DNA of 61,882 nt, counting the filler, from Sphacelaria rigidula (Eukaryota): NCBI GenBank assembly GCA_964200075.2. It is 7 parts of 7 records of this genome, joined end to end, with 100 filler letters (N's around TTAATTAATTAA, not from the genome) between each part and the next. Parts side by side here need not be neighbours in the genome. Positions count along the whole stretch, not along the records: positions 8,857 to 17,611 come from CAXNAA020010183.1; 6 more parts are not named here. One strand, written 5' to 3'. A program made the position numbers and the translations under genes. The notes beneath the pieces are model-generated. The model was given only the letters and a program-made list of their open reading frames with translations, was not told the origin of the DNA and made no database searches. Positions 5,818 through 58,790 of this stretch are shown here, piece by piece; positions within the stretch are counted from its first letter, which is position 1, and the number at the start of each line of letters is the position of its first letter.

Positions 5818-7040
5818 CCCGGCCCCGCCCTTCACCCCCCCACGCCCACATCNNNNNNNNNNCCCCGGCCCACGGTTGCCTTTTTTCGTGTCCCCCTCTT
5901 TTTATTTTGCGCCATTTAAAGGAAAAGGCCCCCCCTCCCCCCCCCCCCCCCCCCCCCAGGATCTGCACTGTCGGGGTTTGTCCATGACAAAACTCTGGAC
6001 CCTAAAATCTGGTGTACAGCCTCGGAAAAACATGGACTGAAAAGCCAGGCGTTTACTTATTATGCTAGCACGGGTTCTGTGTGCATTTAACCCATCATTT
6101 TTTCAAGATCAGCGATTGTTTTAAAAAACCGGCATCTCATAATAAGTAAAAACCTTTGAAAAGCGCACCCCTACTGTTGCAATCGCAATTCCCGCCCGGG
6201 ACTTACTGGTGACGTCTTCGAGTATCACTACAGTAAGGAGCGAGGTCATTTCTCACAACAAGCGTCACGATGATGGCAGCCGCCCCTATTCGCTTCGCTC
6301 AGCTAGAACCCACAGCAGCGGCCTCTGAGCGCTAGCATCAGCAGCGTAACAACAATATCAACATCCGCAGAAAGGCGACCCGGTATGTTTGTTGTTGGAT
6401 CGGAGGGAAACAATATCAGCACTAGACCTGCAGGGTTGTGAGTTGCGCAGATGAGACGCATGTTCAATTGTGCCAGCGGCAGTACACACAACTATTTTCG
6501 TATTCCCTCGTTCAGGGTGCTGTCACGAAATGACGCCGTTACGTTGAGTTGATAGTGATGATCTGGATAATGATCGGGGACACGGAGATGAAACTCTGGC
6601 GTGTCTAGGAGGCTGTGCCTGGAAGGGCTCTCCGGGTAATGAGATGTTGTATGAAAGGCTGACAACTGAAACTGAGGCCAGTAAGACTGGGGAGTCCCTC
6701 AATAGATCCACCAGTTCTTCTTCTGGCTGGCGTCACAATATCGATATTAGGGCTGGAGCTAGTACCTAGCGGAACCTGCTGGAAAACCTTTGGCGGAAGA
6801 GTCTAGTAGCTGGGGACAACCTGATTCACCACGGGCGCGTGGAGGGGGTTCAAGCTGAAGTAATCGGCAAAAAGGCGGTTGGCCTGTGACTGATCCAGAC
6901 TGAGGACTTGCTGAAGCTGCGTGCAGCGGGAGTTTGGAGGCTCCTACGACTGTGTGGTGTGGCGACGAAGCAAGGGTGAGGTGTGCATTTTGCGACGATC
7001 CGCTGGCCTGCGGAATGTCCGCAGGTAGCCGCCTGCTGTT

Positions 7041-8694
7041 ATGGCGACCGGCTCGCGTGCTGTGTCCAGCGTGACGCCCGTGGTCATGCGGGGAGAGTTG
7101 CGACCTCCCCAATACGGGGATAGGTACTCCGAGAGTGCATCTCGCACTTTCTACACCAATTACTTAGAGTATAGGAAGCGTGTGGAGCGCGCTAACGCAG
7201 GAGGTGCTGTGCGACGTCAGGTAGTGTCGATGGCTCAACAAATGCCGGCGCATGTGCAGAGAGTGTTTACTCGTGTGGAACATGATGGGAGCACGATCAC
7301 CCCGCCGCAATTGGTCGCGGCGATCAAAACGCATACGGCAGGTGCCGAGGTGGAGTTGACCCAAGCGTCCGTGGCCGTGTCCAAAGCTGTCGCCATGGCG
7401 TCTCGGGGAAAGACGGTGCTAGAGCGCGTGGAGCCAATCCTGTTCAATCTGGAGAAATACTTCTCGGAAAATCCGAACGTGGAACTTGAATATCGTTCCC
7501 CCGTGGCTGAGTTCTTTGCCGGCCCGGCTGCAGTAATCACTGAGGCTTTGGTGGAGGGGTTGACGCCGGAAACATTTAAGCAAGCCGCGCTTGTGAAGTT
7601 GCAGCACGAAACAAATTGGAAGGCCGACCCGTACCTGGTAATGGACACCGTCGTGGCCGAGTCCAAAGAGTGGCGGAAGATAGAGGTGTTCGGCCAGTCG
7701 TCCACCTCCCCGACGAAGCCTTTGCGCCACCTCGACTCGAAATTGGCCGGTCGCGCCGCGACCATCATCTACCATCGCTGTGGCCAGGTCGGCCATTACG
7801 TGCGCGATTACCCAACGTCTTCTGGTGAAGAGTCTGGGCAGTCTTATGCCGCGCGCCATCGGCATCGTCAGCACAAGGGCAAAGGATGAGGTGATCGGGG
7901 TGGTGGTGACGACAGATCCTCCGGCAGTGGACGATCGCAGTCGATTTCTCAGCAGCAGCAGCAGCAGCAGCATGGGTCTGGTTCTGGGTCCGGCGCCGCC
8001 GTAGGTACTGCTGCTCCGCAACGCACGGTGCAGGTAAGACCGATTGCTACAGTGTCGAACACTGCGTCGGCGCCGGTGGAGGCGCCGGTGGCGACACCGG
8101 CAGTAGCGCCAGGCGCGGCGCCTGCTAGTGCGCTGGTCGGAGGTTCGCCAAATTCTTGGTGTGCTGGCTGGGGATTGTACCCGCTGGCGGTGTCGTTTGA
8201 ATCTGTCGGGGCGTCTTCGCCTGCGCAGCTTGCGCAGCCGTGACCTCAAGTGGGATTATCGGCGCATCGGTCGGCGGATGACGTGCCAGTAGAGTGTGCG
8301 GATAAACACGTTCCTGCGGAGCTGTGTGTTCCAAATCAACAGGGCGTGGAGACGTTGCGTTCGGGATGTGTTGGATTCTAGCGCTCATTTTAGGTGTCTG
8401 TCGGTGAAGATTGTAGAGATGTTAGAGCGTCTTCTCCCGCGTGTACCGCTGCGCATCCCGTTTTCGCTCGGGGTGCGGCAGGCCGTCACCGCGCCATGTC
8501 AGCATGTTCCGTCACGGAGCGTACTGTTCCACTACAGCTGGCTTTCGCGACTTCCTGGGGGCCGCCGCCGTTGCCTCCGATCTCGTTCGCAATCATGCCG
8601 GGGCCAGATGGCGTCATTCTTCTGGGGTTACCGACGCTTCAGGATCTTGGAGTCGACCCGAATACGCGGTTGTGGGACTCCAGGAAGACGCGGA
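7041..8694 (+). pseudogene. Ty3/gypsy gag-protease relic
   Basis: 282-aa ORF with degenerate CCHC knuckle (YHRCGQVGHYVRDYP), then frameshifted protease motifs VLDSSAHFRCLS and ILLGLPTLQDLG; possible LTR 6521-6737 (TGTCACG...CGTCACA); cut by a MITE and the scaffold end. Confidence 0.75.
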
Positions 8695-8756
8695 GAGCAA
8701 TGCTACGGTAGGGGTGCACTTTTTTCGCGAAATTATGTCTGATTCAGAGGCTCCTA
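8695..8756 (+). mobile_element. Truncated GAGCAATGC MITE (Sola-like)
   Basis: GAGCAATGCTACGGTAGGGGTGCAC end shared with copies at 15233-15489, 36258 and 48923. Confidence 0.75.
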
Positions 8757-8856
8757 NNNNNNNNNNNNNNNNNNNNNNNNNNNNNNNNNNNNNNNNNNNN
8801 TTAATTAATTAANNNNNNNNNNNNNNNNNNNNNNNNNNNNNNNNNNNNNNNNNNNN
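8757..8856. other. Artificial scaffold linker (also 17612-17711, 26467-26566, 35321-35420, 44175-44274, 53029-53128)
   Basis: Identical 100-bp N44-TTAATTAATTAA-N44 spacers containing stops in all six frames. Confidence 0.98.
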
Positions 8857-9335
8857 CAATCAGGCAGAATAAATCGTGAATTTGGTGATTTTGAGTCGTG
8901 ATGATTTGTCCTTACCGTGAACCTTTCTGCCCCCCCTTCAACACAGCTGTGCCACTCTACTGCGGTTGTCACCCTATTGCCTCGTTAACCTGAACCTTGA
9001 ATGGATCGTCATCGGTAAATTCCACCAAGATCAAAAACAACGTAAGAACAAGTAACATGCACGTAACGATAGGTTGCAATCCTGGCCAGTCGGCCAGTCC
9101 AGGTATACCCCAAACCCGGCGTCCTGGTTCCCTGGTATAATGTGTGGCTGTTTCTTTTCCGGATAATATTTCCGGATATTTCCGGGAATACGGGGAGGTA
9201 TCTCAAAGTTGATGGAATTTCGTACAACTCATTGGTTTGTGCGGCGGATGATCACGGACTATAGGAATAGAGGTGTGAGCTGGTGGATGACAAATCATCG
9301 GAGTTGTGAGGATCAAGGCAAACTAACGAAAGCGC

Positions 9336-9546
9336 TGTAATGCGTGAGAGGACCGCGTGGTTCAGAGGACCACATCAGAGCTTGAACATCCCCATGGTTA
9401 GGGTTAGAGTTAGGGTTAGGGTTGGGGTGAGGGTCAGGGGTGTGGTCCCTGCAGGGACAGGCCGGATTGGGGTCGAAGACGTCGATCCTGAGGTGTTTCG
9501 AACTACGATACAGTCCCCTAAGCACGCGACCCTCTCACGCATTACA
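9336..9546 (+). mobile_element. Telomeric-repeat-bearing TIR element, copy 1
   Basis: TGTAATGCGTGAGAGGACCGCGTG...CTCTCACGCATTACA; GCGC TSD; internal TTAGGG-like tract. Confidence 0.9.
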
Positions 9547-10151
9547 GCGCACCCACCCCTCTTGTCTCAGTTATGTTCAGTTACCAAGGCAAAATCACTC
9601 CACACCTCTCATGTGTTGAGCAAAGCTACACTATCGCTTGAGTGTGTCAGACAGTCAGCGCAGCACAGCAGTGGTCCTCAAAGTTGATCGTATCATTCAG
9701 CACAGGAATCCTAAATTACGGCACGGTACAGCGGCGAAGACCACACAACGTGTCAGTCAGAATCTACGCGAGCGTCTGTAGCAGCATTACCAACAGCAAA
9801 ATTAGCACCAGCTGGATCATCAGACGGAACAAATCTGGCTGCAGGAGGAGGGGAATCAGCATCAATATATATCCATCTTCGCCCCAAGGCGCACGCCCTT
9901 CGCCTCCGGCGCGGTAATCGAATGTTAGCTCTGAGTACAAATATCTCCGTGCTTTGGCCAAAATGGGTACACAAACTGGCTGCAGATAGACGCGGCCACT
10001 GTTGATCGTGTGGTAATTTGGCTTATGGGGAACAGCGTGGAATGCAAGAGCGTAAGATCCAGTATTCTGCTTCGAGATCGTTGGTAGAAAATGCGGCGGT
10101 TTAGCGGATGCGATTTCCTCATTTTCGTTCCAAACATTGACCAGGACCAAT

Positions 10152-10230
10152 GTGCCCCGGTGGTGTAATCGTTCGATCGTCGCCACTAGGGTGGAGAGAA
10201 TGAGGGTTCGATTCCCGATGCGTTTTTTTT
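10152..10230 (+). other. tRNA-derived Pol III-like unit (SINE head or tRNA pseudogene)
   Basis: A-box-like TGGTGTAATCG, B-box GGTTCGATTCCC, followed by a T8 run; no clean cloverleaf. Confidence 0.5.
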
Positions 10231-10294
10231 CTTCTTCCTATTATGTGATTTCCACCGTGGGAAGCGTGAGAACGTGAGTGAACAACGGTGCGGG

Positions 10295-10529
10295 TGTAAT
10301 ACGTGAGAGGACCGCGTGCTTAGAGGACCGCGCCGTGACTCGAAACACCTCACGATCGACGTTTTCCAAAACCAATCGGGCCAATCCCTGCAGGGACCAC
10401 GCCCCTGACCCCAACCCCAACTCTAACCCTAACCCTAACCCTAACCCTAACCCTAACCCTAACCCTGACCATGGGGATGTTCAAATTCCGATGCGGTCCT
10501 CTAAGCACGCTGTTCTCTCACGCATTACA
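10295..10529 (-). mobile_element. Telomeric-repeat-bearing TIR element, copy 2
   Basis: About 37-bp TIRs, CGGG TSD, longest (CCCTAA)n tract, opposite orientation to the other three copies. Confidence 0.92.
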
Positions 10530-12513
10530 CGGGAGTGTTGACCCAATCCGCGCGACCAAAATGGAAGGCGTGTACCGAGGGAGAGACGGGTTGATCCCTT
10601 GAGACCACAGACTCATCCGAGGAAGGGAAAGGGCTCAACGTGCGACAAATGAAGAAATACATGATGAAGAAACGCAGAGTTCTCTTGTGTTGCACTGCAT
10701 GCTTTAGCCAGATAAAAAAAAAGTACGGAGAATTGTCTTGAGGTGTGCTGCGCGTTTTCGATTGGAAGACATGAGGGACATTTGTCATAGCTCAAGAAGG
10801 AGCCGCCTGAGGTGCACGCCCGCACCGCTCGCCCCTCTAGGATCAAGGTGTCTGTTTTCTCCTCTCTCATGCCAGTGGTATTCAACGTGATAATACAGAT
10901 ATCTGCATACCTTCGTTTGATCGATTTCAATCTCGACAACTGGTGTTTTACGAGCAGCCGCCCTCTACTTTCTCCTTAAGCAGTCGATGCTGCTTGAACC
11001 AGTGTGTGCTCGAAGTATACCGACACGCTAGCATTGAGTACTTTCGAGTAGACTAGGGCTAGTAGATTGGCTTTTACCAGGCGTAGTACAGGAAGCGAGC
11101 GATGGGCGAGTAGGAATGTAGTAGCGGAGCGGGAGGTTTCCGCTCAAGAGATCTTGGTCACGCCAGGAGATTACCATAGTTGCAAGGAATGACAAGCTAG
11201 TAGGGGTAGAGAGGCTTTCGCAACAGTGGGGACAAGGAAGCTGCTCCGATGGACATCGGAGCAAGGGGAACTCCACTCAGCAGCTGGACAGGGGCTCAAT
11301 CCGGAGGCGATACAGGTACTCAAGTCGGTAGCACGGCGTTGGGTAGGATGTCCGGTCTTGAATTCCCAAATGCAATGGATTTGAGTGCGGGTGTTGATGT
11401 ACAAGGACAAAGTAACACCCAAGGTTCGTCGATACTATTGAGTGTCGATTCTCGAGTTTGGAGGCTGGACAAATTTGTCCCTTCAACAGCAATAAGGGTC
11501 ATGGGTGGATGAGTTGTAAGCGTGAAGTTGAGCGGTATGCTTTTATATACGGCTTCGGCGAGGGATTGTCTAGAGACGCTACGCTTTGTGTTGATCCTTT
11601 GAACAAGCAGCAGCCACTAGCATTGGGTGTGAGTTCGCACGATATCAAACGAGCACGATTTCCGTATAACAGCCTGGACTCGTTTTTGAGGTTCAACATT
11701 TTATTGTGGTTTAACGGACCATCGAAATTGCGTTTACTTTGTTCAAAAGGCTCGGGATTCGCAACCGCTTTCGTCCATGTGCCCCTTACGCAGAAATTTC
11801 TGCACGGGAGCGAAAGCATGATGGTGAGGAGTCCAACAGAAAAGCCACCGTCATTCATTGTGCCGCATCTTTTGAGCAACCCCTCCCTGCGTCTAAGCGC
11901 TACGGAACACGTAACAAAGCATGCTGAAAACACACCTATTTGGACTAGTCATCGAGTTTTCGAGCGCCTCTTGTTGAGTATTTGAGAGAGACTTCATACT
12001 GTTGCGCCACCGATGACCGCCGTCAGTGAAACGATCCAATGCGGCGGCAGACACCAACGATCTTTGAACCGCATCATCATTCAGCAGTCTGCTGAGATAT
12101 ACCGGTGCCCCACAATAAAGCTGCAGGCACACACAACGGGGGTAAGGGCTAGCCCCACGCCTGGGGTTGTTTCGCCAGTAGTGCCCATGCGAGGCGCTTC
12201 ATCCACTCTGAACCAGCTATCACGCCTTGTATGGCTACCTCCGCCGTGGCTGTGTTGGGGACCGGTTTCGTGGTGGGCTGTTGAACAATACTTAGTCTAC
12301 TGTAGTGGAACGCGCTTGAAAATCTGAGCCGTTTCTTTTTAATTCAGAATCCGCGGCAGCTGTAGTTTGAAAATCCCTTCTGACGGTCCCAAACGGGATC
12401 TGATGGAGCGATGAAAAGCGCTGGCACCCGCCCCCTCAGATGGTAGACACATACTTTTGGGCTCGCGTTCATCTTCTATAGCATGGTGGCGTGCTTGGAA
12501 TCAACACTTTTCT

Positions 12514-13167
12514 CCGAAAACATTAGGCTCAAAGATGGACGTTTTGCCCGAGTTCAAAAACCAAAAGTACAGCAAGGGTCAAGCCACTGATGACCCCATC
12601 CAATCACAGTCGTTGTAGTCTCGTACTAGGTCACTGGGATTGGAGATTGGTCAAGAGATTGTAGTGGAAAAGGTTTTTAATTCCCTTTCCTCTGAGTACA
12701 CCACTGTACGAGATCAATGACGTTTTGAGGCGGCATTGCAAGCGGATAAGACACAAGCCGTTGTCAAGGATAAATATCTGTAATAGATGGTTTGCGTAAT
12801 ACAGATCACAACCATACCCTCTACACAGGCAACAAAGGTTCCGAAAACATCAGGCTCAAAGATGGACGTTTTGCCCAAGTTCAAAAACCAAAAGTACAGC
12901 AAGGGTCAAGCCACTGATGGCCCCATCCAATCACAGTCGTTGTAGTCTCGTACTAGGTAACTGGGATTGCAGATTGGTCAAGAGGTTGTAGTGGAAAAGG
13001 TTTTTAATTCCCTTTCCTCTGAGTACACCACTGTACGAGATCAATGACGTTTTGAGGCGACATTGCAGACGGATAAGACACAAGCCGTTGTCAAGGATAA
13101 ATATCTGTGACAGATGGTTTGCGTAATACAGATCAAAACCATACCCTCTACACAGCCAACAAAGGTT
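12514..13167 (+). repeat. 327-bp tandem duplication in copia gag
   Basis: 12514-12840 is nearly identical to 12841-13167. Confidence 0.9.
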
Positions 13168-13401
13168 CCACCCCCAAGGGTGAGAGTAAAGGGGGTGGGA
13201 ATAGGTCGCAAAAGTCAGCGACAACACATAGTACTAGCAAGGTTCGGGGTAAGGGCGGTACGACTGGAAATACTGGCGGTAGTAGTCTAACAAACACACA
13301 AAATATTGGAAGGATTAATGTAGCGTGTTTCGAGTGTGGTAAGACCGACCACTTCGAATCAGAATGCCCGCAACGTATTTGTGAGGAATGTGGAGGCAAG
13401 G

Positions 13402-13629
13402 TGTAATACGTGAGAGGAGCGCTTGCTTAGAGGACCGCATCGGAATTTGAACATTCCTATGCTTAGGTTAGGGTCGGGGTTGGGGTCAGTGTTAGGGTTA
13501 GTGGTGGGGTTAGGGTCATGGGCGTTGTCCCTGTAGGGACTGGCCCGATTGGTTTTGAAAAATGTCGATCCTGAGGTGTTTCGAACTACGATGCGGTCCC
13601 CTAAGCACGCGGTCCTCTCGCGCATCACA
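13402..13629 (+). mobile_element. Telomeric-repeat-bearing TIR element, copy 3
   Basis: TIRs, CAAGG TSD, splits the second gag zinc knuckle; degenerate TTAGGG tract. Confidence 0.9.
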
Positions 13630-14282
13630 CAAGGGACACTCCAAGGGGTTTCATAAGCTGGTCGCGATGTGTACATTAGACAATTTCAAGGATTCTGTAG
13701 ATTTTGGGTACATTACAATGGAGACTAAGATTGGTGAACACGAGTCCGCAACGAACAGTGTACAAGATAACCGCCCAGTTTTAGATGAAGGGGACAAGGA
13801 GGTTTGGATATCAGATAGCGGAGCGTCATGCCACATGACTCCTTCGAAGTAGAAAATGTGTGATTACAAAGCTTGCACGGGTGTATCGGTTACTGAAGCA
13901 AATAGCCATAAAGTACCGATAGCAGGTTTTGGCAGACTGTTGGTATCCACGGTTGGTGACGATGATCAACTAACTTTCAATATCAACAGGGTGGCACATG
14001 TCCCGAGTTAGACAAATATTTGCGTACCCTGCAAAGTGTGCTCGTGGAACACGATTTTCTGATTAATGTGACGAAGAGAGGGACTGTGATTACTTAACCT
14101 GATGAAAGGGAAGTGTTCTTCAAGAAGGAAGGAATGATGCTATGGTTTTCACTCAATTTTCACCATCAACCACCTCGACGGATCATAAAGTTGACAACGA
14201 TGAGTCTGCCAGTGCTATTCTCGCCCCTGGAAAGATACAGATCAATCTCGATCAGCTGGACATCAATTCGTTTCATCAGTCT

Positions 14283-14573
14283 ACGGGTGGTCACTGGGGT
14301 CTGTAACCTGGCCATTTTGGGGCCCTATCCACCTTTGGTAAGGTCCGCGGATTAGGTAGACAACTGAGGAGCATTCGCACAGCATGGACAGGATCGAAAC
14401 AAAACATGTCCCAGTCTATAGGCGGGTGACTCCCCTGTAGACTGGAACATCTTTTGTTTCGAACCTGTCCATGCTGTGCGAATGCTCTTCAGTTGTCCAC
14501 CTAATCCGCGGACCTTACCAAAGATGGATAAGGTCCGAAAAAGGCCAGGTTACAGACCCCGGTGGCCACCCGT
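14283..14573. mobile_element. 291-bp foldback element
   Basis: Almost the whole element is an inverted repeat (ACGGGTGG...CCACCCGT); GTCT TSD; interrupts the copia GAG-pre-integrase region. Confidence 0.9.
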
Positions 14574-15232
14574 GTCTCATAGCCGTCTGCATGAGCGCTT
14601 GTTGCGGGAAAACGCGAAACAGTAGGGGGTGACTTTGGTGGGAAAGTTGGAGGAGTGCAAGGGGCGTTCCATGGCCAAGGGGCTGCGAAAGTCCATTTCG
14701 ATTTCAACCAACACTAGAGCAGAGAAACCGTTTGAACGAGTATTCATCGATGCGTCCGGACCAAAGTTAGGTGAGAGTACGGGTAGTATGAAGTATTCGT
14801 TTCTAATTCGGGATGAATTTTCGGGGAAAATCTGGATGTATTTTGATAAGCACAAGTCTGACACTACGAGAGGATTTGAGCAGTGCCTTGCAGATGTAGG
14901 AGCGAAGTGCATTGCTTCGGTGGTAGAGACTATGAGGTCGGGCGGTGGTGGAGAGTTTGCTGGGTCTTTCGGCAACCTGTGTGGGACACGCGGTATTAAA
15001 CAGGACTATACCCCAGCAGACAGTCTTGCGTATAACGGTGTGGCTGAGCGTGCGATAGCAATGGTTGAGCAGGCCGCTATGGCTGCACGAATTCAGGCGA
15101 AGGTAATGTACGATGTGGACGTTCCGGCAAGGGTGTGGGCTGAATCGTATCGTTGGGCGGCAGACGCATTAAATCGATCTGCTACCACGGCTAACCCTGG
15201 TAAGAACTCCCCAGATGAACTGTTCTACGGTG

Positions 15233-15489
15233 AAGTGATGCTACGGTAGGAGTACACAAATGTTTTCTGAGGTTGAAATTGTTAGGAGCCCTTTATTTCA
15301 TCCAAAACACGACTTGTGAAAATATACGAGAGTACGCCAGGATTAATATTCTAATGTGCTGGGGATATCCCGCATAAAGCTTCAAACGGGGATACTGTGA
15401 CCCACATTCTTGTGCGTCTAGAATCGTTAGGAGCCCCTGAACCAGAAAAAAAATCGCAAAAAAAGTGCACCCGTAACATAGCATTGCTC
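15233..15489 (-). mobile_element. GAGCAATGC/GAGTGATGC MITE (Sola-like, 4-bp TSD)
   Basis: GGTG TSD; removing it restores copia LFYGEAPQVKLLPFFKPG. Confidence 0.85.
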
Positions 15490-16476
15490 GGTGAAGCACC
15501 CCAGGTTAAGCTTCTACCTTTCTTCAAGCCAGGAGACGTCAAGTACAAGAGGAACTCGAGGTGTATGCCCAGAGCACAGGATCGTGTTTACTTAGGACCT
15601 GGTTACAACTACCCTCATGACTCCATGATAATGCAGACGAAGGGTAGACATGTCATCAGCACCCGAAATGTCACTTGGTGCCGTTTGCCCCCCTCAAGTT
15701 CTCGAACAGTGGTTCCATTTTCTAGGCGGGGTGGGGGAATCTCGCAAGATGTAGAGAGCGGGGAGGGCGATGCCGAGGACTCTGATTCAGGGGAGTCGGA
15801 CCTCGGAGTGGGGGGAGAATTCACGAATGGTGCGGTGTCCGAGGAGCGTGAACGAGATGTCAATAAGCGGTCAGAACTTGAGCAGGGACCACAGAACGGC
15901 GACAGTGAAAACACAGTGAAGCAGCTGCCTGCGTCGCCTACGTCGTCTACATCGTCTGCACCATCTTCTGAACATGATTCATGGGAGATGTCGTCTGTCG
16001 GTGGCGAAGATTCCCCAAGCTAACTAGATTCGGTTGAACCGACGCTAGGTCGGATCAGGCAACACACACGTCTGCTACAGCAACAACACCAAGAACAGCG
16101 ACCGCATCAACGCGTTCCTGACCTACAACATCAAGAAGGCGATCACAGTACGTTTTGGGCGTCGAGGAAGGATATCTGGGGCGCGGACAAGATACTGGCT
16201 CTTCTGGGCGACACGGATGACCCAAGAAAAACAGGGGAGTCTGAGTTGGAAGTTATTTCATAGGTTATCCGTGATGAGATTGAGGTAGCACCTGAGACGG
16301 TAAAGGATGTATACAATTCTCAGCTCAAGAGAGTGTGGATTGATGCAATGAACAGAGAGGTAGAAGGATTGCAACGTGGCAACACGTGGACAGTTGTAGA
16401 CTCACTGTCAGTAGGAGAGAAATAAGCAGATTCTAACTGGGGTTTCTAGTGAAAGGCTGATGAGCATAGTGATGTG

Positions 16477-17348
16477 TGTAGTAGTATGGCAATAGCAGAA
16501 TAGGCCGCACCCCAAGGGAGGGATGTGACAAGCCAGTCCTGTTTTCGACTTGTGATATCAAAGCTGAAGGTTCTCTCTCAACACAACAAACCAGCTGTTT
16601 GGGGCTGTTACACCAGACGCCACGCTCGTACGTGCAATTGATAGACAAAATATAAGCGAGGGGTTATGGTACACGTGACTTACGTGAGTCAGTCACGGGC
16701 TTGAAGACCAGTATCGTTGGAGAGATCAGCAGGTAGGCGGTTTTGGAGGCTCTTCTTATATATCCAAAATATGTCGAATGTCTTAGTCTGTGGGACAAGT
16801 GAGGCTGTAGGGGGGAAGAGGTGCTCGATCGCAGCTCAACCTTCATCCTGCCTCGCGTATAAACCTGTCATATTACAAAACCAGCCTGACGCGCCCTGCT
16901 GTGGCCAATCAAAGCGTCCGCTGTGACGGTGCGTAATTACACGGCCAAGGAGGCGCAGACCAGCCCACAAATTCCTCAGGCGAACAGCGATATCTAGAAT
17001 CTACCCCTTATATATCTACTTTGTAATACGTGAGAGGACCGCGTGCTTGGAGGACCGCATCGGAATTTGAACATCCCTATGGTCAGGGTTAGGGTTAGGG
17101 TTAGTGTTGGGGTTATGGTCAGGGGCGTGGTACCTCCAGGGACTGACCTGATTGGTTATGAAAAACGTCGATCCTGAGGTGTTTTGAACTACGGCGCGGT
17201 CCTCTAAGCACGCGGTTCTCTCTCGCATTACATACTTTACAAGCACACATTCGAGTAGAACCTTTTCATATCCACCAATCGTTTGTAAAACGGTCGCGAT
17301 ATCCCACGGTACTAGTTTAATTCTCGCACGCGGTCATGTACCATCACA
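16477..17348. mobile_element. Solo-LTR-like insertion in copia RT
   Basis: TG...CA ends, flanks TGTG/TGTA; removal rejoins KADEH..DV with MKAKARLV; left boundary uncertain by about 2 bp. Confidence 0.6.
17022..17232 (+). mobile_element. Telomeric-repeat-bearing TIR element, copy 4
   Basis: TIRs, TACTT TSD, nested inside the solo-LTR-like insertion. Confidence 0.92.
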
Positions 17349-17884
17349 TGTAATGAAGGCAAAAGCTCGACTGGTGTTCAGGAGTGATCATCGAGAGATT
17401 GGTGATATTTCAGCGTTTCCATCTACTCCTCCTTCAGCAACCAACAGAGTAGCTGCGGCGGTGGCTTGCGCTGAGGGGAAGACCATTTTTCACTTTGACG
17501 TAGAGCAAGCTTTCGTACACTCTGAGCTGAAGATCAAGTAACAGTGGACCCTAGAAAATGGGGTTCATACAAAATATGGGGTTGAAGTGGCATTTCTCTT
17601 TGGCAGGGAAGNNNNNNNNNNNNNNNNNNNNNNNNNNNNNNNNNNNNNNNNNNNNTTAATTAATTAANNNNNNNNNNNNNNNNNNNNNNNNNNNNNNNNN
17701 NNNNNNNNNNNTAGGGCGGCTTTTCGGTTGGACTGCACACCATCATGCTTTCGCTCCAGTTCAGAAACTTCTGAACTAGGGGCACATGGACGAAACCGGT
17801 TGCGACTCCCTTTTGAACAAAGTAAATGGAATTTCGATCCGTTAAACCTCATAAAAATGTTGAACCTCAATAACGATTCCAGGC

Positions 17885-21779: not shown

Positions 21780-24700
21780 CGGCGAGCGGGCGACGCTTCA
21801 GTGTACTAATCATCGTCTCAAATGAACTTCAGGGGGCCGCGGTCATCGAGGAAGCGGATGTAGTAGGGGTTGTCGGAGTCGGGTGCTGGTAAGTGAATCT
21901 TGCCCAGCCACCAGAGTGAGTCCTGCGCCTTGTACCTGAAGTACGCGCCTTTCGGTAGACGCTTCCTGCGAAATGAAAGCAAGTATTGCGCACGCGAAAC
22001 AAGGCTATAGCCAGCCTTGACGAAGCGGGCAGAGTGTTCCCGGGCCAGGTCCCGTGCCGCCGCGCCCTTCCGCAGGACCTGTATCTTCGGTTCAACGGAC
22101 GGTGTTGCGCAACATCGCCTACCCAGTATAACAAAATTTATCTACGGAAATGTCGCAAGTCGACTTCCCGTTCTCACGTGATCCGCATCAATCATTTCCA
22201 GTGCGTGTGATACATCACTGCTATTTTACCACCACAACCGCGGACCAATTGGGGTCCGCTGATATGATCGACTACCACGCGTTCCACGGGGACGTGAATG
22301 TCTTCAGCCGTGATGTGAGAAGGCGGCGGCTTGGTGGCGTGCCTCGTCCATACGTACTGGCTGAGTCTTAACGGCAATTGTTTGGGCATATCATTGATGT
22401 CGTGCGGGGCGGTGCAAGGTTTACAGCAACAGACAGACACGCGGTTTTTCTGCGGAGGTCTAGCTTCATCCGTGGGGAAAGCGAGGTACAAAAGGTTTTC
22501 CCCAATGGGTCGATCATCCGGTTCTGTAGCACTTGGCCCGCCGTCCAAACTTTCTCACGGCCCGGTCGAATTGAGGGACAGCTTGGCCTTCAGCACCTTA
22601 TCCGGCGAATCCTTACTCGAGTGGCTCGTTGGCGAATTGTCTGTACATCGTTGTACACCCACGCCCATGCAACTGCCTTCCACACTGGGCGCTTATGCAT
22701 CACCGCATCCAACGTGGTATTGGTACTGATCGCTTTTGCCAAATAGATTCGGTTTTGCTCGCACACCAAATCATATGCCAACCGCAGACGATGACTCAAC
22801 AGGTCATGATACTCCCTGATATCCCGGTCTAAACTCTGATGATCGCCCACCTTGCGGTGCTCGAATATGGTCAACGGCAGCCGCGGCATGCGACCAAAGT
22901 GGACTTCATTTGGTGCAACGCCGGTGGCGGTGTGGACCGAGGTGTTGTGGGTCCGTTGGAATAAGGGCAGATGCAGATCTCAATCTGTTTGCTGTTCGTT
23001 TGTGACGGCTGACAACATTTGCGCCATCGTATGGTTGACACGTTCCGTTCCACCGTTCGTTTGGGGGTGGTACGGACTTACAAAGATGCGATGGGAACCT
23101 AGTGGTGTACTGACCGCAGTAGAAAGTTTGCCGGAAAAATGTTTGCGATTGACGGACAATACACTCCGGGGGTCCGGCATGCATAATGGAGTGACAACTG
23201 AATCGATCATTCAATCAACAATATGTACTCGTTCCTGTTTTCCATGAGCGGCAACGGTCCGAAATAGTTCCAAGGTATAACTTCACCGGGCCCATTGGGG
23301 AGCGGCATGGACATGATTGGTCAACGCACAGTCTGGGGAGACGTCTTACGCGCCTGACAAATTAAACCACGACGTACCCACCAACGGACACTTTGGTCGA
23401 TACCTACCCAACTGTAGAATCGCTCGATGAATTATGTCGTAGACTCGGCTAATTGTTCTCGCGCCTTATCTCGGCGGAAATATATATATATATATATATA
23501 TATTTTTCGTTTACTCTCGTTCTACTAGAAATGAGATCGCGTACTTGTACAATGAAAACAAATGGGGGGGCGGTGAGCTACGGTGCGGCGGCAACATTTA
23601 TGTGGGGGCCCATCACACGGAAAAGGCCCTGTCCAAATATGGTTCTTGCATCTGTGTTGGCATTCCCAGAAACCAAGAGGAGGGATCGAGGGTGCGAGCC
23701 ACCGGGCGCCGTTTTCGGGGCAGAAGGCGTCAGCCCGCTCATGCGCAAACCGGACGTTTTTTCTGTGTCAGCCCACTCATGCCAAAATCCAGAGTCTCGG
23801 TGTCAGCCCACTCATGCCCAAACCTGGAGTCTTGGAAGCGTACGCGAATGATCTCCCTCGCGAGGTAGCTAATTATGACTACTTGTACTTGATCAGCCAG
23901 CAGCGGGTTTGTGCGAGACGGGCGTGAGGCGATGGGGGCGTTCCTTATGACACGTTGATATTAAACGGAGCCATCGTGCATCGACCCAACTCCGGAGGTG
24001 AGGTGGAAAATTGCGCGGTATAGCGAATCAGAACATCTACAAGTTTGTCGATGACCGCTGCAGTACAACCTGCACCGTCGAGATCGAGGGTGATGTGACA
24101 GGTGTGGTGGAACATCATCCCATAGTTGCAAAAACCTCGCTCGCTGCTCAGGCTAGAAACAATCCAACAATATTTGAGGAATGTCGGTTTTCGTGTCGTT
24201 ATCCGACGCGATCACAACCATTTTATCAGCTGAAACTGGTCCATGACAATCAGCGTTTTGCTCTACCTCAGTTGGGGAAGTGGTACTGGTGCGGGGACAT
24301 ATGTCAGACGAGGTGTACGTGGAAGCGGAGCCGAAGCATACCTCAACAACTGGTGGGGTACTCGATCAATGCGGAGACGTCAGAAAAACTGCTGGCGTCC
24401 GTCTTCACAAATACATCTTGCTGTCCGAACATATGTGTCGGAAACGCAACCAGCTACTCTCTGCCCAACAAAACATGGAATGCCATGGCATTGTGTGAAA
24501 CAATCAGAGCCGAAACAGAAGATCGTGCCATGGGGTGCGTATCGTTGGAGAACGGAACACTCAATCGCACAGCCCGGGTGGTACTCAAGAGTAGAACCTG
24601 CCCGGAGCCACCGAAGGTGCGTGGGGGGGACAGGGGACAGACATTTGTCGTCGAATGCGCCGGTGCGGAGCATGCCCTGCCAGCAACTGACGGTGGGAAA

Positions 24701-28133: not shown

Positions 28134-30313
28134 CTAAAACATAAACACCCGACACACTTCCATTCGACTCCGTTCACAAACCGATCGCGAAACAAGAAAA
28201 AATTGCAAAAAAATAGCGTGACGCCAAGCGTGAGAACCTAAATGAAGCTCAAGTCCTCCAATCCTTTGTTCGATCCAAGCTGGGCCATGGAGGGGGGAGA
28301 GCAGTGGTATGCCAGTCTTTTTCTCAGGATTGCACACATATTCTCACCTCGACCCTGGGCGCCCGTGCTCCAATATCATCCTTTCCCGGAGCTCGAAGGC
28401 TCGAGGATTTTGACTTTTCAGTCTGCTCTCCGCGGCCTGTCGCTGAGCCAGCTCTTCCTCGGAGATTCTCCAGGCCAGGCAGGAGAGAAGGCCGGTCATT
28501 ACGGCTAGATATATAAGAATGGCGCTCTGGCTCACCGTGTAAAACGCCAAAAGCTCCTGCAAAGCGAAGAGATCGATACAGGGGGTAAGATCGCCAACGA
28601 CGTCCGCGCATCTTGTGAAGAAAACTGGAATACGGTGGTGGGTGCTGGTCAGACATGTGGGAAGGCAGAAGCCGAGAGGGCAGGTATTATCACTATTATA
28701 CAACATTATCTCCGCGTTCGAAATCGCGCACCCGATTTCCCTCTACCCGAGTTTCATAAGTACACGTTGCGTGTGCGCTACCGAAAGTGGCGGGTTATCC
28801 ATCGGTTTCCTGCGTTCTGGGCTGGTCGCACGCACTGATCGTCACACGAAGAAGCGGGACGTAGCCAGTCTCAACTACCTTGCACAAGAGCAAGTGCCTC
28901 AACGTTTTCCAACGTCTCTTCGCAAGCCCGCGCCGTCGTTCACCTTCCCATTGGAGTATCCGCACGCCTGGCCCGTCTTCGCCCGCAACGCGCGCGAGTC
29001 CGCTTTCCCCACCAGCGCATCTGAGTGCCAATGCCGCAAACTGTTGAACCCAACATCGAGCTCCGGATCATCCATCAACCAACGCCGTCGACCACGCCCC
29101 TCTCCTTCGCTGTCATCACCCCGGACGGATGCAACGGCAATGCTAGCCGCCGATTCCCCCGAAATGTCCATCGGATGTGCGTGTTTCCAGCTCCCGAGAC
29201 ACGCGCGGCAGGAGGATAGGCAGAGGGGCGGGCCTCCCAGCCGGGCCGCGGTTAGCGTAACGGCGATGAGGACGCTCAGGAATGAGAGGGACAGGACGGG
29301 CACGAGGCGTGGCGGGAGGAACTCTTCCATCGCCGCCACGAAGCTGCGCTTGAAGCGATCGAAGCCCGGCAGCACCGCGCCCGCTCGCTTCGCGCCGACC
29401 ACAAACATGGCGTTGTAGAAGCACCACGTGGACAGCGGGATGGCCGCCAGCCACGGAGAGCCTGACAGGGAAAACGGAATGGCGATACTCAGGATACACA
29501 TGGAAAAATGCATCGCCAGTTCTTTCTGGAACACGAACTTGTGCATGCGCAGGAAGATTCGACGCTGGCGAGTGCCTATCCCTCCGCCCCCCCCACCGTG
29601 CCTCTTGTTTCCGCGATTTCCCCCGCCACCAACACCGCCACCATCTACGCCACCGCCGCCGCCGCTGCCGCCGCCGCCACCACTACCACCGCCATCCCCA
29701 CCACCGCCGCCTGCCGACGGCGGGGATGTGTCTCCAGCCTCCATGCGGCATGGCACCAGGATTCCGTCTCCTCCCCCTCCGAGCTGTTGCTCTCCAAACA
29801 TGTCATCTGTATTCCAGGTGTTTCGAGAGTCTCCCGCGCTCCCCGTGCCTCCACCCCCACCGCTACTGAGGAGGTGGTCGCTGGCTAGGGGAGAGCGAGG
29901 CGATAAAAGGCCATTGTTGTGATCGATGTCCGATCTGTGGTCGGATTCTGCATCCCAGTAGGAGGAACGGGCGGTCAGCCGCCGCATATTGAAGACTTGC
30001 TCGGTGCACCACCCTTCGCCGCAGCCTGTATGAAGGGGTGGGGTAAAAACTGTCATGAGTGGTCTGTGCGCTTGAGCATATTCTGAGCAATACCCATCTT
30101 GCGTAACAACCGGAGAGTGTTGTGCCCGCGGTCGGGGCTGCTCCACGGGATGCTCAAATCGGGCCCGACAGTTTCCAAGAGCAGGTTCACGCGGACGCAG
30201 AGAAGCAAACGGCTCTCCAGAAACTCGCAAAAGTTGCCGAGTGGTTCTACATCAGACACAGGCGGCGGGCTTCTCACAGCATGCATGAAAATTGCACTGG
30301 GTTTGGTATGGGA
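28134..30313 (-). pseudogene. Degenerate multi-pass membrane protein gene of unknown family
   Basis: Exon 30313-30094, phase-compatible GT-AG intron 30093-30026, long exon with Gly-rich linker and hydrophobic helices; the 3' part is broken by stops and frameshifts (28899, 28344). Confidence 0.6.
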
Positions 30314-36257: not shown

Positions 36258-36487
36258 GAGCAATGCTACGGTAGGGGCGCACTTTTTGCGCGAAATCGTG
36301 TCTGGTTCAGGGGCTGCTGACGATTCTAGATGCGCAAGAATATGGGTCAGGGCATCCCCGTTTCCAAATTCATTCGCGATTTCCCTAGCCCATTGCAATA
36401 GTAATCCTGGCGTAATCTCACATATTTCATCAGACGTGTTTTGGATGAGATAAAGGGATCCTCATGTTTTTAACCTTGGAAAATATC
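36258..36487 (+). mobile_element. GAGCAATGC MITE, right end missing
   Basis: Homologous to 48923-49166. Confidence 0.75.
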
Positions 36488-48700: not shown

Positions 48701-48922
48701 CAGTTGGGACAACGTGCAGTACACATGTTCACGACTGGTTGATGGATCGCGGGTCTGCGAGTGTCGTCGGTGGACTCCGTGAGTTTTATCTCGATGCTAT
48801 ATGAGGTTTATTTCTCACACTTTCCCAGCGGGATAAGCTAGGTCGCCGATATCCGCCAGTATGAACATCTAAGGGTTTATGTATTAATAACAAAAGACGC
48901 TGAAGTCTACGTGCTCACTACG

Positions 48923-49166
48923 GAGCAATGCCACGGTAGGGGTGCACTTTTTTTCGCGAAATGTTGTCTGGTTCAGGGGCTGCTAACGATTCTACATTGC
49001 ACAAGAATATGGGTCAGGGCATCCCCGTTTGCAAATTCATTCGGGATATCTCTAGCGCATTGAAATAGTAATTCTGGCTTACTCTCACATATTCCGCAAG
49101 TGGTGTTTTGGATGAGATACAGGGCTTCTAACAATTCTAACCTCGGAAAATATTTGTGCATCACTC
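48923..49166 (+). mobile_element. GAGCAATGC MITE (Sola-like)
   Basis: GAGCAATGC...GCATCACTC with TACG TSD. Confidence 0.88.
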
Positions 49167-51804: not shown

Positions 51805-51842
51805 AGGGTTAGGGTTAGGGTTAGGGTTAGGGTTAGGGTTAG
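51805..51842 (+). repeat. Interstitial telomeric repeat (AGGGTT)6
   Basis: Perfect hexamer run without the TIRs of the scaffold-2 element. Confidence 0.9.
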
Positions 51843-57558: not shown

Positions 57559-58790
57559 CTATAGGACATCCACAATATCTTCGTCTCGTGCAGGGTTACC
57601 GATCTCCCCTTCGCTTTCAGCCTGTGCAGCGATGGCGTGTCGTCGCCCCCCCTCCTGTCTTGCGTGGATATTGGCCATTCCCACGTTGATACATTTTACT
57701 TCCTTTACGCCGCCAGCGTTGAGACGCAGGAACATCATCTTGTACACGCGATCGGGGCCCGTTTGGCACCTCAGCTTGGTGAGGGTGGTCGACAAAACGG
57801 AGAAGTCCCGCTCCGATTGGCAACTGGTGCTGTTCACGCTGAGGTAGACACGTGCCAGTGCAGGTAACAGTGGAAACTTCGGCCCCTCGATGATTGAGCC
57901 ACCCTCACTGAACATCGGGTTCCCCGCCGAGCGCCCGTAGGCAATGGCATCCAGGCGGGCGTCTGCAGACGGCGCAATGTGCTCGTAGTCCATCATCTTC
58001 TTCCCCAAGCGGGCAGAAATGGTCATGGATGACCCCGCCGCCTGGACGCCAGCGGTGCTCTGATGGCGGCGGCATGGCTAGCCTCACGTTCCTCAAACAG
58101 GCTCCGTGAGCGTTTTTGTGCAGGCTCCTCAGCGCTGCCCGCCGCTCCATCGAGAGAAGTAGCCATCTCCCTGCTACCCAACTCAGTGTCCATCGCCTTG
58201 CCTAGCGCGACCAGCGCCTCCTTCGACATGTCGCGCAAAGTGTGGTCGTCCACCTCCGTTAAGTCCCCGTTGCCGCACACCGAGTCGTCCATTGTTTTTA
58301 AGCGCGGGTCCAGGTAAAAAGCGAGGATCCCCACGGTGGTGGAGGCCACATTAACCTTGCGATCCCTGAGCTGCCGCCTTCTGCATTGGGGCCTGGAGGT
58401 CATCGACGCACTTGAGCTCGTGAATCGGCGGCTTCTCTCACGTCTTGGTGTCCCTCGCCTTCTTAAAGTCGACCATCTCCAACTTTGCGGAGGTGAGGAT
58501 ATCAACGAGCTGGGGGCGCAGCTAGACGGCCCGGCCGAGGATGCTGTCAATGCCGTCCTGGATACCGCTCGTCACTCGCTTTGCGTACTCCAGCACGCAG
58601 CAGATCTTATTTATGACCACCGAGTCGGTCGGCGAGAGCCCGCGGTACGCATCCTGGGGGTGTTCGCGGAGGTACTCGGCGATGTACAGTATTTCTGGAG
58701 GATGATCAAACGCACCAAAATCGCAAGCTGCGAAGCCCACCTCGCATCCATTGTGGCGTACACACGGGGGTGTGAACGACGAGATGACGG
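57559..58790 (-). pseudogene. hAT transposase C-terminal relic
   Basis: RWASQLAILVRL, AFYLDPRLK and dimerisation motif FPLLPALARVYLSVNSTSCQSERDFS..LR..MMFLRLN, spread over several frames. Confidence 0.9.

What the first reader, a model, noticed from the sequence alone, without database searches (positions are those of the whole stretch)
9336..17232. Mobile TIR mini-element that carries telomeric (TTAGGG)n
Seen: four copies (9336-9546, 10295-10529, 13402-13629, 17022-17232) with about 37-bp TIRs TGTAAT(A/G)CGTGAGAGGACCGCGTGCTTAGAGGACCGC, each containing GAGGACCGC twice. Each copy has its own TSD (GCGC, CGGG, CAAGG, TACTT), both orientations occur, and a telomeric tract sits at a fixed internal position. 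Lengths of 211, 235, 228 and 211 bp differ mainly in that tract. Known: TGT...ACA ends with short TSDs typify integrase-like transposases (Ginger/TDD) and LTR integrases. Inference: a non-autonomous DNA transposon that spreads interstitial telomeric, potentially G-quadruplex-forming sites, which could recruit telomere-binding proteins or seed chromosome healing. I do not recognise it as a described family.
Basis: partly seen in the sequence, partly recalled or inferred. Interest (0 to 1): 0.75.

Follow-up and report, generated by a model that had tools for sequence, protein, structure and literature searches.

The report
Seaweed mini-transposon carrying telomere repeats
In what is most likely a brown seaweed, a 210-235-base non-coding jumping element sits at hundreds of different sites (likely thousands of copies) and carries a short run of telomere repeats in its middle, so it has scattered telomere-like DNA through the genome; it was likely moved by an integrase-type transposase, and any effect of the repeats is untested.

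Summary
The four copies are real, at the stated coordinates, in both orientations, each with its own 4- or 5-bp duplication. Corrections: the TIRs run about 50 bp, the doubled GAGGACCGC is exact in 2 of 8 TIRs, and the tract is mostly degenerate (2-6 exact TTAGGG). The host is most likely a brown alga. Contigs of public runs show a sharp-ended, dispersed family: 240-390 unrelated flanks per end in each DNA run, roughly 10^3 to 3x10^4 copies (inferred bounds), with the tract apparently kept in most copies. A paralogous empty site supports the 4-bp TSD and an interrupted zinc knuckle supports the 5-bp TSD. No PBS/PPT or shared internal region was seen, so a solo LTR or TRIM is unlikely. Verdict: a high-copy MITE with TGTAA...TTACA ends, likely moved in trans by a Ginger-like integrase-type transposase (none found), carrying a telomeric microsatellite probably as passive cargo. 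It matches no family description in the curated Ectocarpus list; Repbase and Dfam could not be checked. It is a concrete case of transposon-spread interstitial telomeric sequence. Binding, G4 formation and chromosome healing are untested.

The parts
9336..9546 (+). Copy 1, 211 bp (G-rich tract on + strand); TSD GCGC at 9332-9335 and 9547-9550
9396..9439 (+). Telomeric-type tract of copy 1 (7.3 units, 3 exact TTAGGG)
10295..10529 (-). Copy 2, 235 bp, opposite orientation; TSD CGGG at 10291-10294 and 10530-10533; inserted in a high-copy host repeat whose other copies show the empty site
10403..10470 (-). Telomeric-type tract of copy 2 (11.3 units, 6 exact TTAGGG); four units longer than copy 4
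13402..13629 (+). Copy 3, 228 bp; TSD CAAGG at 13397-13401 and 13630-13634; interrupts the second zinc knuckle of a decayed Copia-like gag
13463..13522 (+). Degenerate telomeric-type tract of copy 3 (3 exact TTAGGG)
17022..17232 (+). Copy 4, 211 bp; TSD TACTT at 17017-17021 and 17233-17237; best covered of the four by other family members in the sequencing runs
17022..17071 (+). Left TIR of copy 4 (about 50 bp; starts TGTAA; GAGGACCGC at TIR positions 13-21 and 29-37, likely transposase-binding motifs)
   Evidence: binding role inferred
17081..17124 (+). Telomeric-type tract of copy 4 (7.3 units, 2 exact TTAGGG)
17183..17232 (-). Right TIR of copy 4 (40 of 50 complementary to the left TIR; ends TTACA)

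Best explanation
This is a high-copy, non-coding miniature inverted-repeat DNA transposon (MITE) of what is most likely a brown alga, with about 50-bp TIRs ending TGTAA...TTACA and 4- or 5-bp target duplications, likely cut and pasted by an integrase-type (Ginger-like) DDE transposase supplied in trans, and carrying a short telomeric microsatellite that is likely passive cargo. Shown: precise ends, TSDs, dispersal over hundreds of unrelated flanks, a tract at a fixed internal position that varies in 6-bp steps. Inferred: the transposase binds the doubled GAGGACCGC motifs, cuts at the terminal CA and joins with a 4- or 5-bp stagger, preferring a bendable CG-centred site. Also inferred: the founder gained the telomeric tract once (for instance as filler when an internal deletion was repaired) and amplification then spread it, making the element a source of thousands of short interstitial telomeric sequences.
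For: Four copies with individual TSDs, both orientations. Summed contig depth rises from 128-223 in the flank to 1.1-3.3 million just inside the left end and falls again past the right end in X1. Loose ends with unrelated flanks (agreement 0.31-0.36) exactly at the ends: left 365/390/343 and right 278/293/247 contigs in X1/X3/X5. Other copies of the repeat that hosts copy 2 show an empty site with a single CGGG (joint 10285-10530 in X1, X4, X5; X4 loose end at 10530). The CX2CX4H spacing of the knuckle around copy 3 fits only if CAAGG is counted once. Depth over the tract (2.2-2.8 million, X1) matches neighbouring internal bins (2.0-2.6 million); the 3 listed joints that skip the tract are single contigs at single-copy depth. 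Ginger ends are TGTNR, with 4-bp (Ginger1, CCGG/CCGT) or 4-5-bp (Ginger2) TSDs (PMC2836005; PMC10045372). Plurality flank letters had a CG centre in 10 of 15 consensus lines and CA or TG in the other 5. For passive cargo: common degenerate units and 6-bp indels in the tract (tables 3-4).
Against: No transposase gene or long element with these TIRs was found; no genome is held and the collections searched hold no such algal DNA. The curated Ectocarpus library lists no autonomous Ginger. The four local TSDs are not CCGG/CCGT and only one has a CG centre. The flank-bias lines are plurality letters at about 0.33 agreement and not independent (same insertions in several runs). Tract depth may include true telomere or other ITS contigs, and only 15 of 84 joints were shown. 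The tool warns that summed depth is no copy number. Retention of the tract in most copies is equally expected if the tract helps the element.
Confidence: 0.58

Rival explanations
1. Same MITE, but the tract is functional and selected: it binds telomere-repeat (Myb/TRF-like) proteins or folds a G-quadruplex, which helps transposition, steers insertion or seeds telomere healing.
For: The tract is kept at a fixed place in most copies. G4Hunter best 25-nt scores are 2.04, 2.08, 1.76 and 1.60, and a four-G-run pattern with loops up to 12 nt occurs in 4 of 4 copies. Brown algal telomeres are TTAGGG, and TTAGGG-bearing subtelomeric satellites are hypothesised to seed healing (PMC11541908). Copies cluster: 4 in one of 7 pieces (P about 0.003); 14 X1 contigs join an end to a nearby start, and several nested self-insertions are listed.
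Against: The majority form is degenerate (TTAGTG/TTGGGG units in about 75% of depth at 17105 and 17109). The strict G4 pattern (loops up to 7) is met in only 2 of 4 copies, and 34 window regions score 1.6 or more. No excess conservation of the tract is evident. Clustering is also explained by insertion into TE-rich relics.
Confidence: 0.15
2. Same MITE, moved by another DDE transposase with TG...CA ends (IS481EU-like or an unclassified lineage) rather than by Ginger proper.
For: IS481EU families have TGT...ACA ends and mixed TSD lengths within a family, 4 and 5 bp included (PMC10045372). No autonomous Ginger is listed for Ectocarpus; its one TGT-ended non-autonomous family is unclassified.
Against: IS481EU was reported from parabasalids and also makes 15-25-bp TSDs, not seen in 4 of 4 copies here. 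The CG-centred flank hint resembles Ginger1.
Confidence: 0.2
3. Solo LTRs of a small LTR retrotransposon or TRIM, spread by reverse transcription and integrase.
For: TG...CA ends; Ectocarpus LTRs are 187-1130 bp, with 4-bp (Gypsy) or 5-bp (Copia) TSDs. Head-to-tail neighbours exist (14 contigs in X1).
Against: TIRs of about 50 bp are far longer than LTR end repeats (my knowledge). Both TSD lengths occur in one family. The head-to-tail contigs average single-copy depth (956 over 14 contigs), and the two spacers shown (13 and 35 nt) are unrelated, with no PBS or PPT. No TGG follows any of the 4 copies.
Confidence: 0.07

Closest known systems
Ginger1 / Ginger2-TDD DNA transposons and their MITEs (Bao et al. 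2010, PMC2836005; Ginger2_NA MITEs, PMC3845634)
   Same: TGTNR ends, TIRs in the 40-270 bp range, 4- or 5-bp TSD, short non-autonomous derivatives; a weak CG-centred target hint as in Ginger1.
   Different: No transposase known here; TSDs are neither strict CCGG/CCGT (Ginger1) nor AT-rich RTATAY (Ginger2); internal telomeric tract; the passages read name animals, a fungus and Dictyostelium, not brown algae.
DNA5-N1_Ec32 of Ectocarpus (PMC12477816, supplementary table)
   Same: Brown algal, non-autonomous, TGT...ACA ends, 5-bp TSD, annotated 'possible Ginger?'.
   Different: TGTTG-CAACA ends, 9-bp TIR, 502 bp, no telomeric tract noted; its sequence file could not be read, so no direct comparison.
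TBE transposons of Oxytricha (PMC7325037)
   Same: DNA transposon bearing host telomeric sequence.
   Different: Tc1/mariner, three ORFs, telomere-like sequence at the TIR tips; here non-coding with an internal tract.
Ectocarpus 98-bp subtelomeric satellite and Porites 188-nt satellite
   Same: Short repeats carrying TTAGGG away from the telomere proper.
   Different: Tandem arrays with no TIRs or TSDs described; this element is dispersed with TSDs.
Telomere-associated Penelope-like retroelements (PMC4522978)
   Same: Mobile elements with host telomeric repeats.
   Different: Retroelements with repeats at the 3' end, oriented at subtelomeres; not TIR elements.

Membership tests
MITE (non-autonomous TIR element) | Short, non-coding, TIRs | tested here: met
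   211-235 bp, about 50-bp TIRs; no Rfam match over the copies
MITE (non-autonomous TIR element) | Target site duplication, supported by an empty site | tested here: met
   4 of 4 copies; paralogous empty site for copy 2; knuckle spacing for copy 3
MITE (non-autonomous TIR element) | High copy number, dispersed, uniform ends | tested here: met
   240-390 unrelated flanks per end in each of 3 DNA runs
Ginger (1 or 2) | TGTNR termini | tested here: met
   TGTAA in 7 of 8 ends, TGTGA in the eighth
Ginger (1 or 2) | Gypsy-integrase-related DDE transposase in an autonomous partner | not testable with these tools
   No genome held; no algal hit in viral, metagenome or prokaryote collections
Ginger1 | 4-bp TSD, CCGG or CCGT/ACGG | tested here: inconclusive
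   0 of 4 local TSDs match and 2 of 4 are 5 bp, which argues against strict Ginger1 behaviour; family-wide plurality flank letters read CCGT, CCGG or ACGG in 5 of 15 lines
Ginger2/TDD | 4- or 5-bp TSD | tested here: met
   two of each
Ginger2/TDD | AT-rich RTATAY target | tested here: not met
   3 of 4 TSDs are GC-rich or mixed; flank plurality letters are C/G-rich
IS3EU/GingerRoot | TA...TA ends, 6-bp TSD | tested here: not met
   TG...CA ends, 4-5-bp TSD against PMC6839031
IS481EU/Banshee | TGT...ACA ends with discrete 4, about 15 and about 25-bp TSDs | tested here: inconclusive
   Ends fit; duplications tested up to 11 bp in 4 copies gave 4-5 bp
Solo LTR / TRIM | Paired direct copies around a conserved PBS/PPT internal region | tested here: not met
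   Spacers shown are unrelated and at single-copy depth; only 2 spacers were visible
Existing Repbase/Dfam family | Sequence match to a deposited consensus | not testable with these tools
   Libraries not held; Ectocarpus FASTA unreadable; no matching description in its 168-row table

The most novel reading that the evidence does not exclude
A Ginger-type transposon lineage is active in brown algae, and this MITE uses its telomeric tract to bind the host's telomere proteins, so that thousands of mobile mini-telomere seeds bias its own insertion and offer ready sites for de novo telomere addition after chromosome breaks.
Probability: 0.12. Interest if true: 0.75.

Novelty: new variant of a known kind. 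Interest (0 to 1): 0.42.

Why it matters
Transposition by mobile elements is listed as a possible origin of interstitial telomeric sequences (PMC6410037). This family is a direct case: one founder tract copied to probably thousands of loci. It gives a large natural experiment, same tract in many contexts, for asking whether short ITSs bind telomere proteins, fold G4s, slip or seed healing. It also points to an uncatalogued integrase-type DNA transposon in brown algae, where the best-curated library has only one 'possible Ginger?' family. Practically, it would confound ITS counts, telomere-content estimates from reads and telomere FISH in this species. If the tract is passive, the finding is a tidy but modest addition to MITE diversity.

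Tried and rejected
No whole genome is held, so no genome-wide BLAST. Exact-pattern scans: viral contigs 0 hits in 3 scans; metagenome contigs 0 in 2; prokaryote genomes 1 hit, a chance 21-nt match inside a bacterial ORF with no further likeness, rejected. Rfam: no match over the four copies; three sub-threshold miRNA hits fall on the unrelated palindrome at 14283-14573. Consensus folding shows only the TIR stem, with a double-sided change at 1 of 80 pairs; the z-score of -7.4 just reflects the TIRs, so a structured RNA was rejected. Pfam on 16 window ORFs found only a hAT dimerisation domain, and a laxer scan of 6 gave zinc knuckles; no Ginger-like transposase in the window. No RNA holder was listed. 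Run X8, only guessed to be RNA, holds near-full copies inside contigs of 0.3-4.2 kb; with no silent control laid this is not used as evidence. No precise insertion polymorphism was listed for any of the four loci (15 of 442 joints shown). Earlier-scan look-ups returned nothing. Ten literature searches listed no MITE with an internal telomeric tract and no description of this family; the library lacks most subscription papers. From memory, and not checked, some deposited non-autonomous DNA transposons of fish and invertebrates also carry GGTTAG-type tracts, which would lower the novelty. A protein search for brown algal Ginger transposases was not run: no Ginger query was in hand and hits would lack genomic context.
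Full report
Observation. All four copies are present as described: 9336-9546, 10295-10529 (reverse orientation), 13402-13629 and 17022-17232. They align end to end at 76-83% identity, and the length differences fall in the G-rich tract. Each has an exact flanking duplication: GCGC, CGGG, CAAGG, TACTT. Random site pairs show a 4- or 5-bp duplication in 1,074 of 190,402 trials. A TIR pattern gave 9 window matches, 8 being these ends, against a chance mean of 0.81. Corrections: the TIR is about 50 bp (40-41 of 50 in copies 2-4); GAGGACCGC is exactly doubled in 2 of 8 TIRs; the tract has 3, 6, 3 and 2 exact TTAGGG among 7-12 near-matches.

Context. The window is seven pieces of about 8.75 kb joined by artificial spacers. 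All four copies lie in piece 2; under uniform placement that has P of about 0.003. A 450-aa ORF in another piece has 15 homologues, and the two named ones come from Choristocarpus tenellus and Phaeothamnion confervicola; one run that holds the stretch is labelled algae metagenome. The host is therefore most likely a brown alga (inference). Ectocarpus telomeres are (TTAGGG)n (PMC11541908, passages), so the tract is probably the host's own telomeric motif. Piece 2 is a nest of repeats. Copy 2 sits in a high-copy repeat. Copy 3 interrupts a gag-like region with a zinc knuckle (PF00098, E 6e-6) of a decayed Copia-like element, named from protease, integrase and RT-like motifs that I recognise.

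Family-wide evidence. I laid contigs of four runs on piece 2 and of four runs on copy 4. In X1, summed depth goes from 128-223 in the left flank to 1.1-3.3 million inside the element and drops again past 17232. Contigs that leave the element exactly at its ends with unrelated sequence (agreement 0.31-0.36) number 365/390/343 at the left end and 278/293/247 at the right end in X1/X3/X5. The tool warns that summed depth is no copy number. As my own bound, dividing the depth at 17072-17081 by single-copy depth (about 68, 25 and 14) and allowing 1-31 overlapping contigs per copy gives about 1,000-33,000 copies in all three runs. Depth over the tract (2.2-2.8 million) matches adjacent internal bins (2.0-2.6 million). 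The three listed joints that skip the tract are single contigs at single-copy depth. So most copies appear to carry the tract; true telomeres could inflate this, and only 15 of 84 joints were shown. Variant depths imply a typical tract of about four exact and three one-mismatch units, with 6-bp indels (tables 3-4).

TSD checks. Other copies of the repeat around copy 2 join 10285 to 10530 in three runs, and the X4 loose end shows the left flank running into a single CGGG: a related empty site for a 4-bp TSD. At copy 3, the CX2CX4H spacing of the second knuckle holds only if CAAGG is counted once (flanks translated separately), supporting a 5-bp TSD. One family thus makes both lengths. The plurality letters next to the ends had a CG centre in 10 of 15 lines and CA or TG in the other 5. 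These lines are weak and not independent, but they lean towards Ginger1's CCGG/CCGT and towards the bendable pyrimidine-purine step that integrases with a 4-bp stagger prefer (my knowledge). Only 1 of the 4 local TSDs has a CG centre.

Age and clustering. Junction contigs show copy 3 in all four runs and copy 1 in three; X5 has a contig lacking 9254-9685, a larger piece that includes copy 1. No precise empty allele was listed. With 76-83% pairwise identity, these four insertions look old, and current activity is unknown. Fourteen X1 contigs join a right end to a nearby left end, and several nested self-insertions are listed. These contigs average single-copy depth and the two spacers shown are unrelated, with no PBS or PPT, which argues against a TRIM and suggests local clustering.

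Mechanism. Shown: MITE anatomy, TSDs, dispersal, tract position and slippage. Inferred: mobilisation in trans by an integrase-type DDE transposase, since TGTNR ends with 4-5-bp TSDs mark Ginger elements (PMC2836005, passages; PMC10045372, passages and Discussion). GingerRoot (TA ends, 6-bp TSD; PMC6839031, passages) does not fit. No partner was found. Inferred: one capture of a telomeric tract by the founder, then passive spread. G4Hunter peaks are 1.60-2.08 and the strict G4 pattern is met in 2 of 4 copies, while 34 window regions score 1.6 or more, so G4 folding is predicted but unremarkable. Nothing here tests protein binding or healing.

Comparison. In the curated Ectocarpus study (PMC12477816: abstract, passages, part of section 5 and the full 168-row annotation table) the only TGT...ACA DNA element is DNA5-N1_Ec32 (TGTTG ends, 9-bp TIR, 502 bp, 5-bp TSD, 'possible Ginger?'); no autonomous Ginger and no telomeric-tract MITE is noted. 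Its FASTA files were unreadable and may bear on this. A kelp genome table lists 875 automated Ginger hits totalling 100,805 bp (PMC12595068, passage), which is not proof of a transposase. Ginger2 MITEs are known from insects (PMC3845634, passages). Other telomere-bearing repeats differ in kind: TBE (PMC7325037, passage), telomeric Penelope-like elements (PMC4522978, passages), and the Ectocarpus and Porites satellites (passages). A review names transposition as a possible source of ITSs (PMC6410037, passages). Passages of PMC9498494, PMC9071541 and bioRxiv 10.1101/2024.02.19.579948 added nothing. Ten searches listed no such family. Repbase and Dfam were not available, and I recall, unchecked, similar tracts in some animal non-autonomous transposons.

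Verdict. A real, high-copy, apparently undescribed MITE that works like a Ginger derivative but cannot be filed as one until a transposase is found. Its distinctive trait, an internal host-telomere tract spread to probably thousands of loci, is well supported; a function for the tract is not. New variant of a known kind; interest 0.42.

Noticed in passing
window 14283-14573: A second, unrelated 291-bp MITE-like near-perfect palindrome (145-nt arms, 90% complementary) inserted in the same Copia-like relic; high depth in all runs.
   Followed up: partly
window 51805-51842: An isolated pure (TTAGGG)6 tract with no TIRs around it, in piece 6: an ordinary short interstitial telomeric sequence.
   Followed up: partly
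window 9254-9685: One X5 contig lacks this 432-bp piece, which includes copy 1; a deletion or a larger insertion polymorphism, not a precise empty site (record 25).
   Followed up: no
window 8695-8756, 15255-15492, 36258-36486, 48920-49158: Another very high-copy repeat of about 235 bp, present in four of the seven pieces.
   Followed up: no
window 12513-13169: Tandem duplication of 327 bp at 96% identity just upstream of the gag-like zinc knuckles.
   Followed up: no
window about 16480-17350: A stretch of about 870 bp that appears to split the Copia-like RT and itself hosts copy 4; possibly a nested solo LTR (read).
   Followed up: no
window 57559-58571 (-); 22593-23250 (-); 7029-7889 (+): Relics of a hAT transposase (PF05699), a Gypsy-like integrase and a gag-like ORF (last two named from motifs I recognise).
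   Followed up: no
window 28899-30251 (-): A 450-aa ORF with no Pfam family, conserved in brown algae and a Phaeothamnion (15 homologues, 49-88% identity).
   Followed up: partly
window, six N-spacers (for example 8757-8856): The window is a concatenation of seven short contigs of near-equal size joined by an artificial spacer, so distances across spacers mean nothing.
   Followed up: yes
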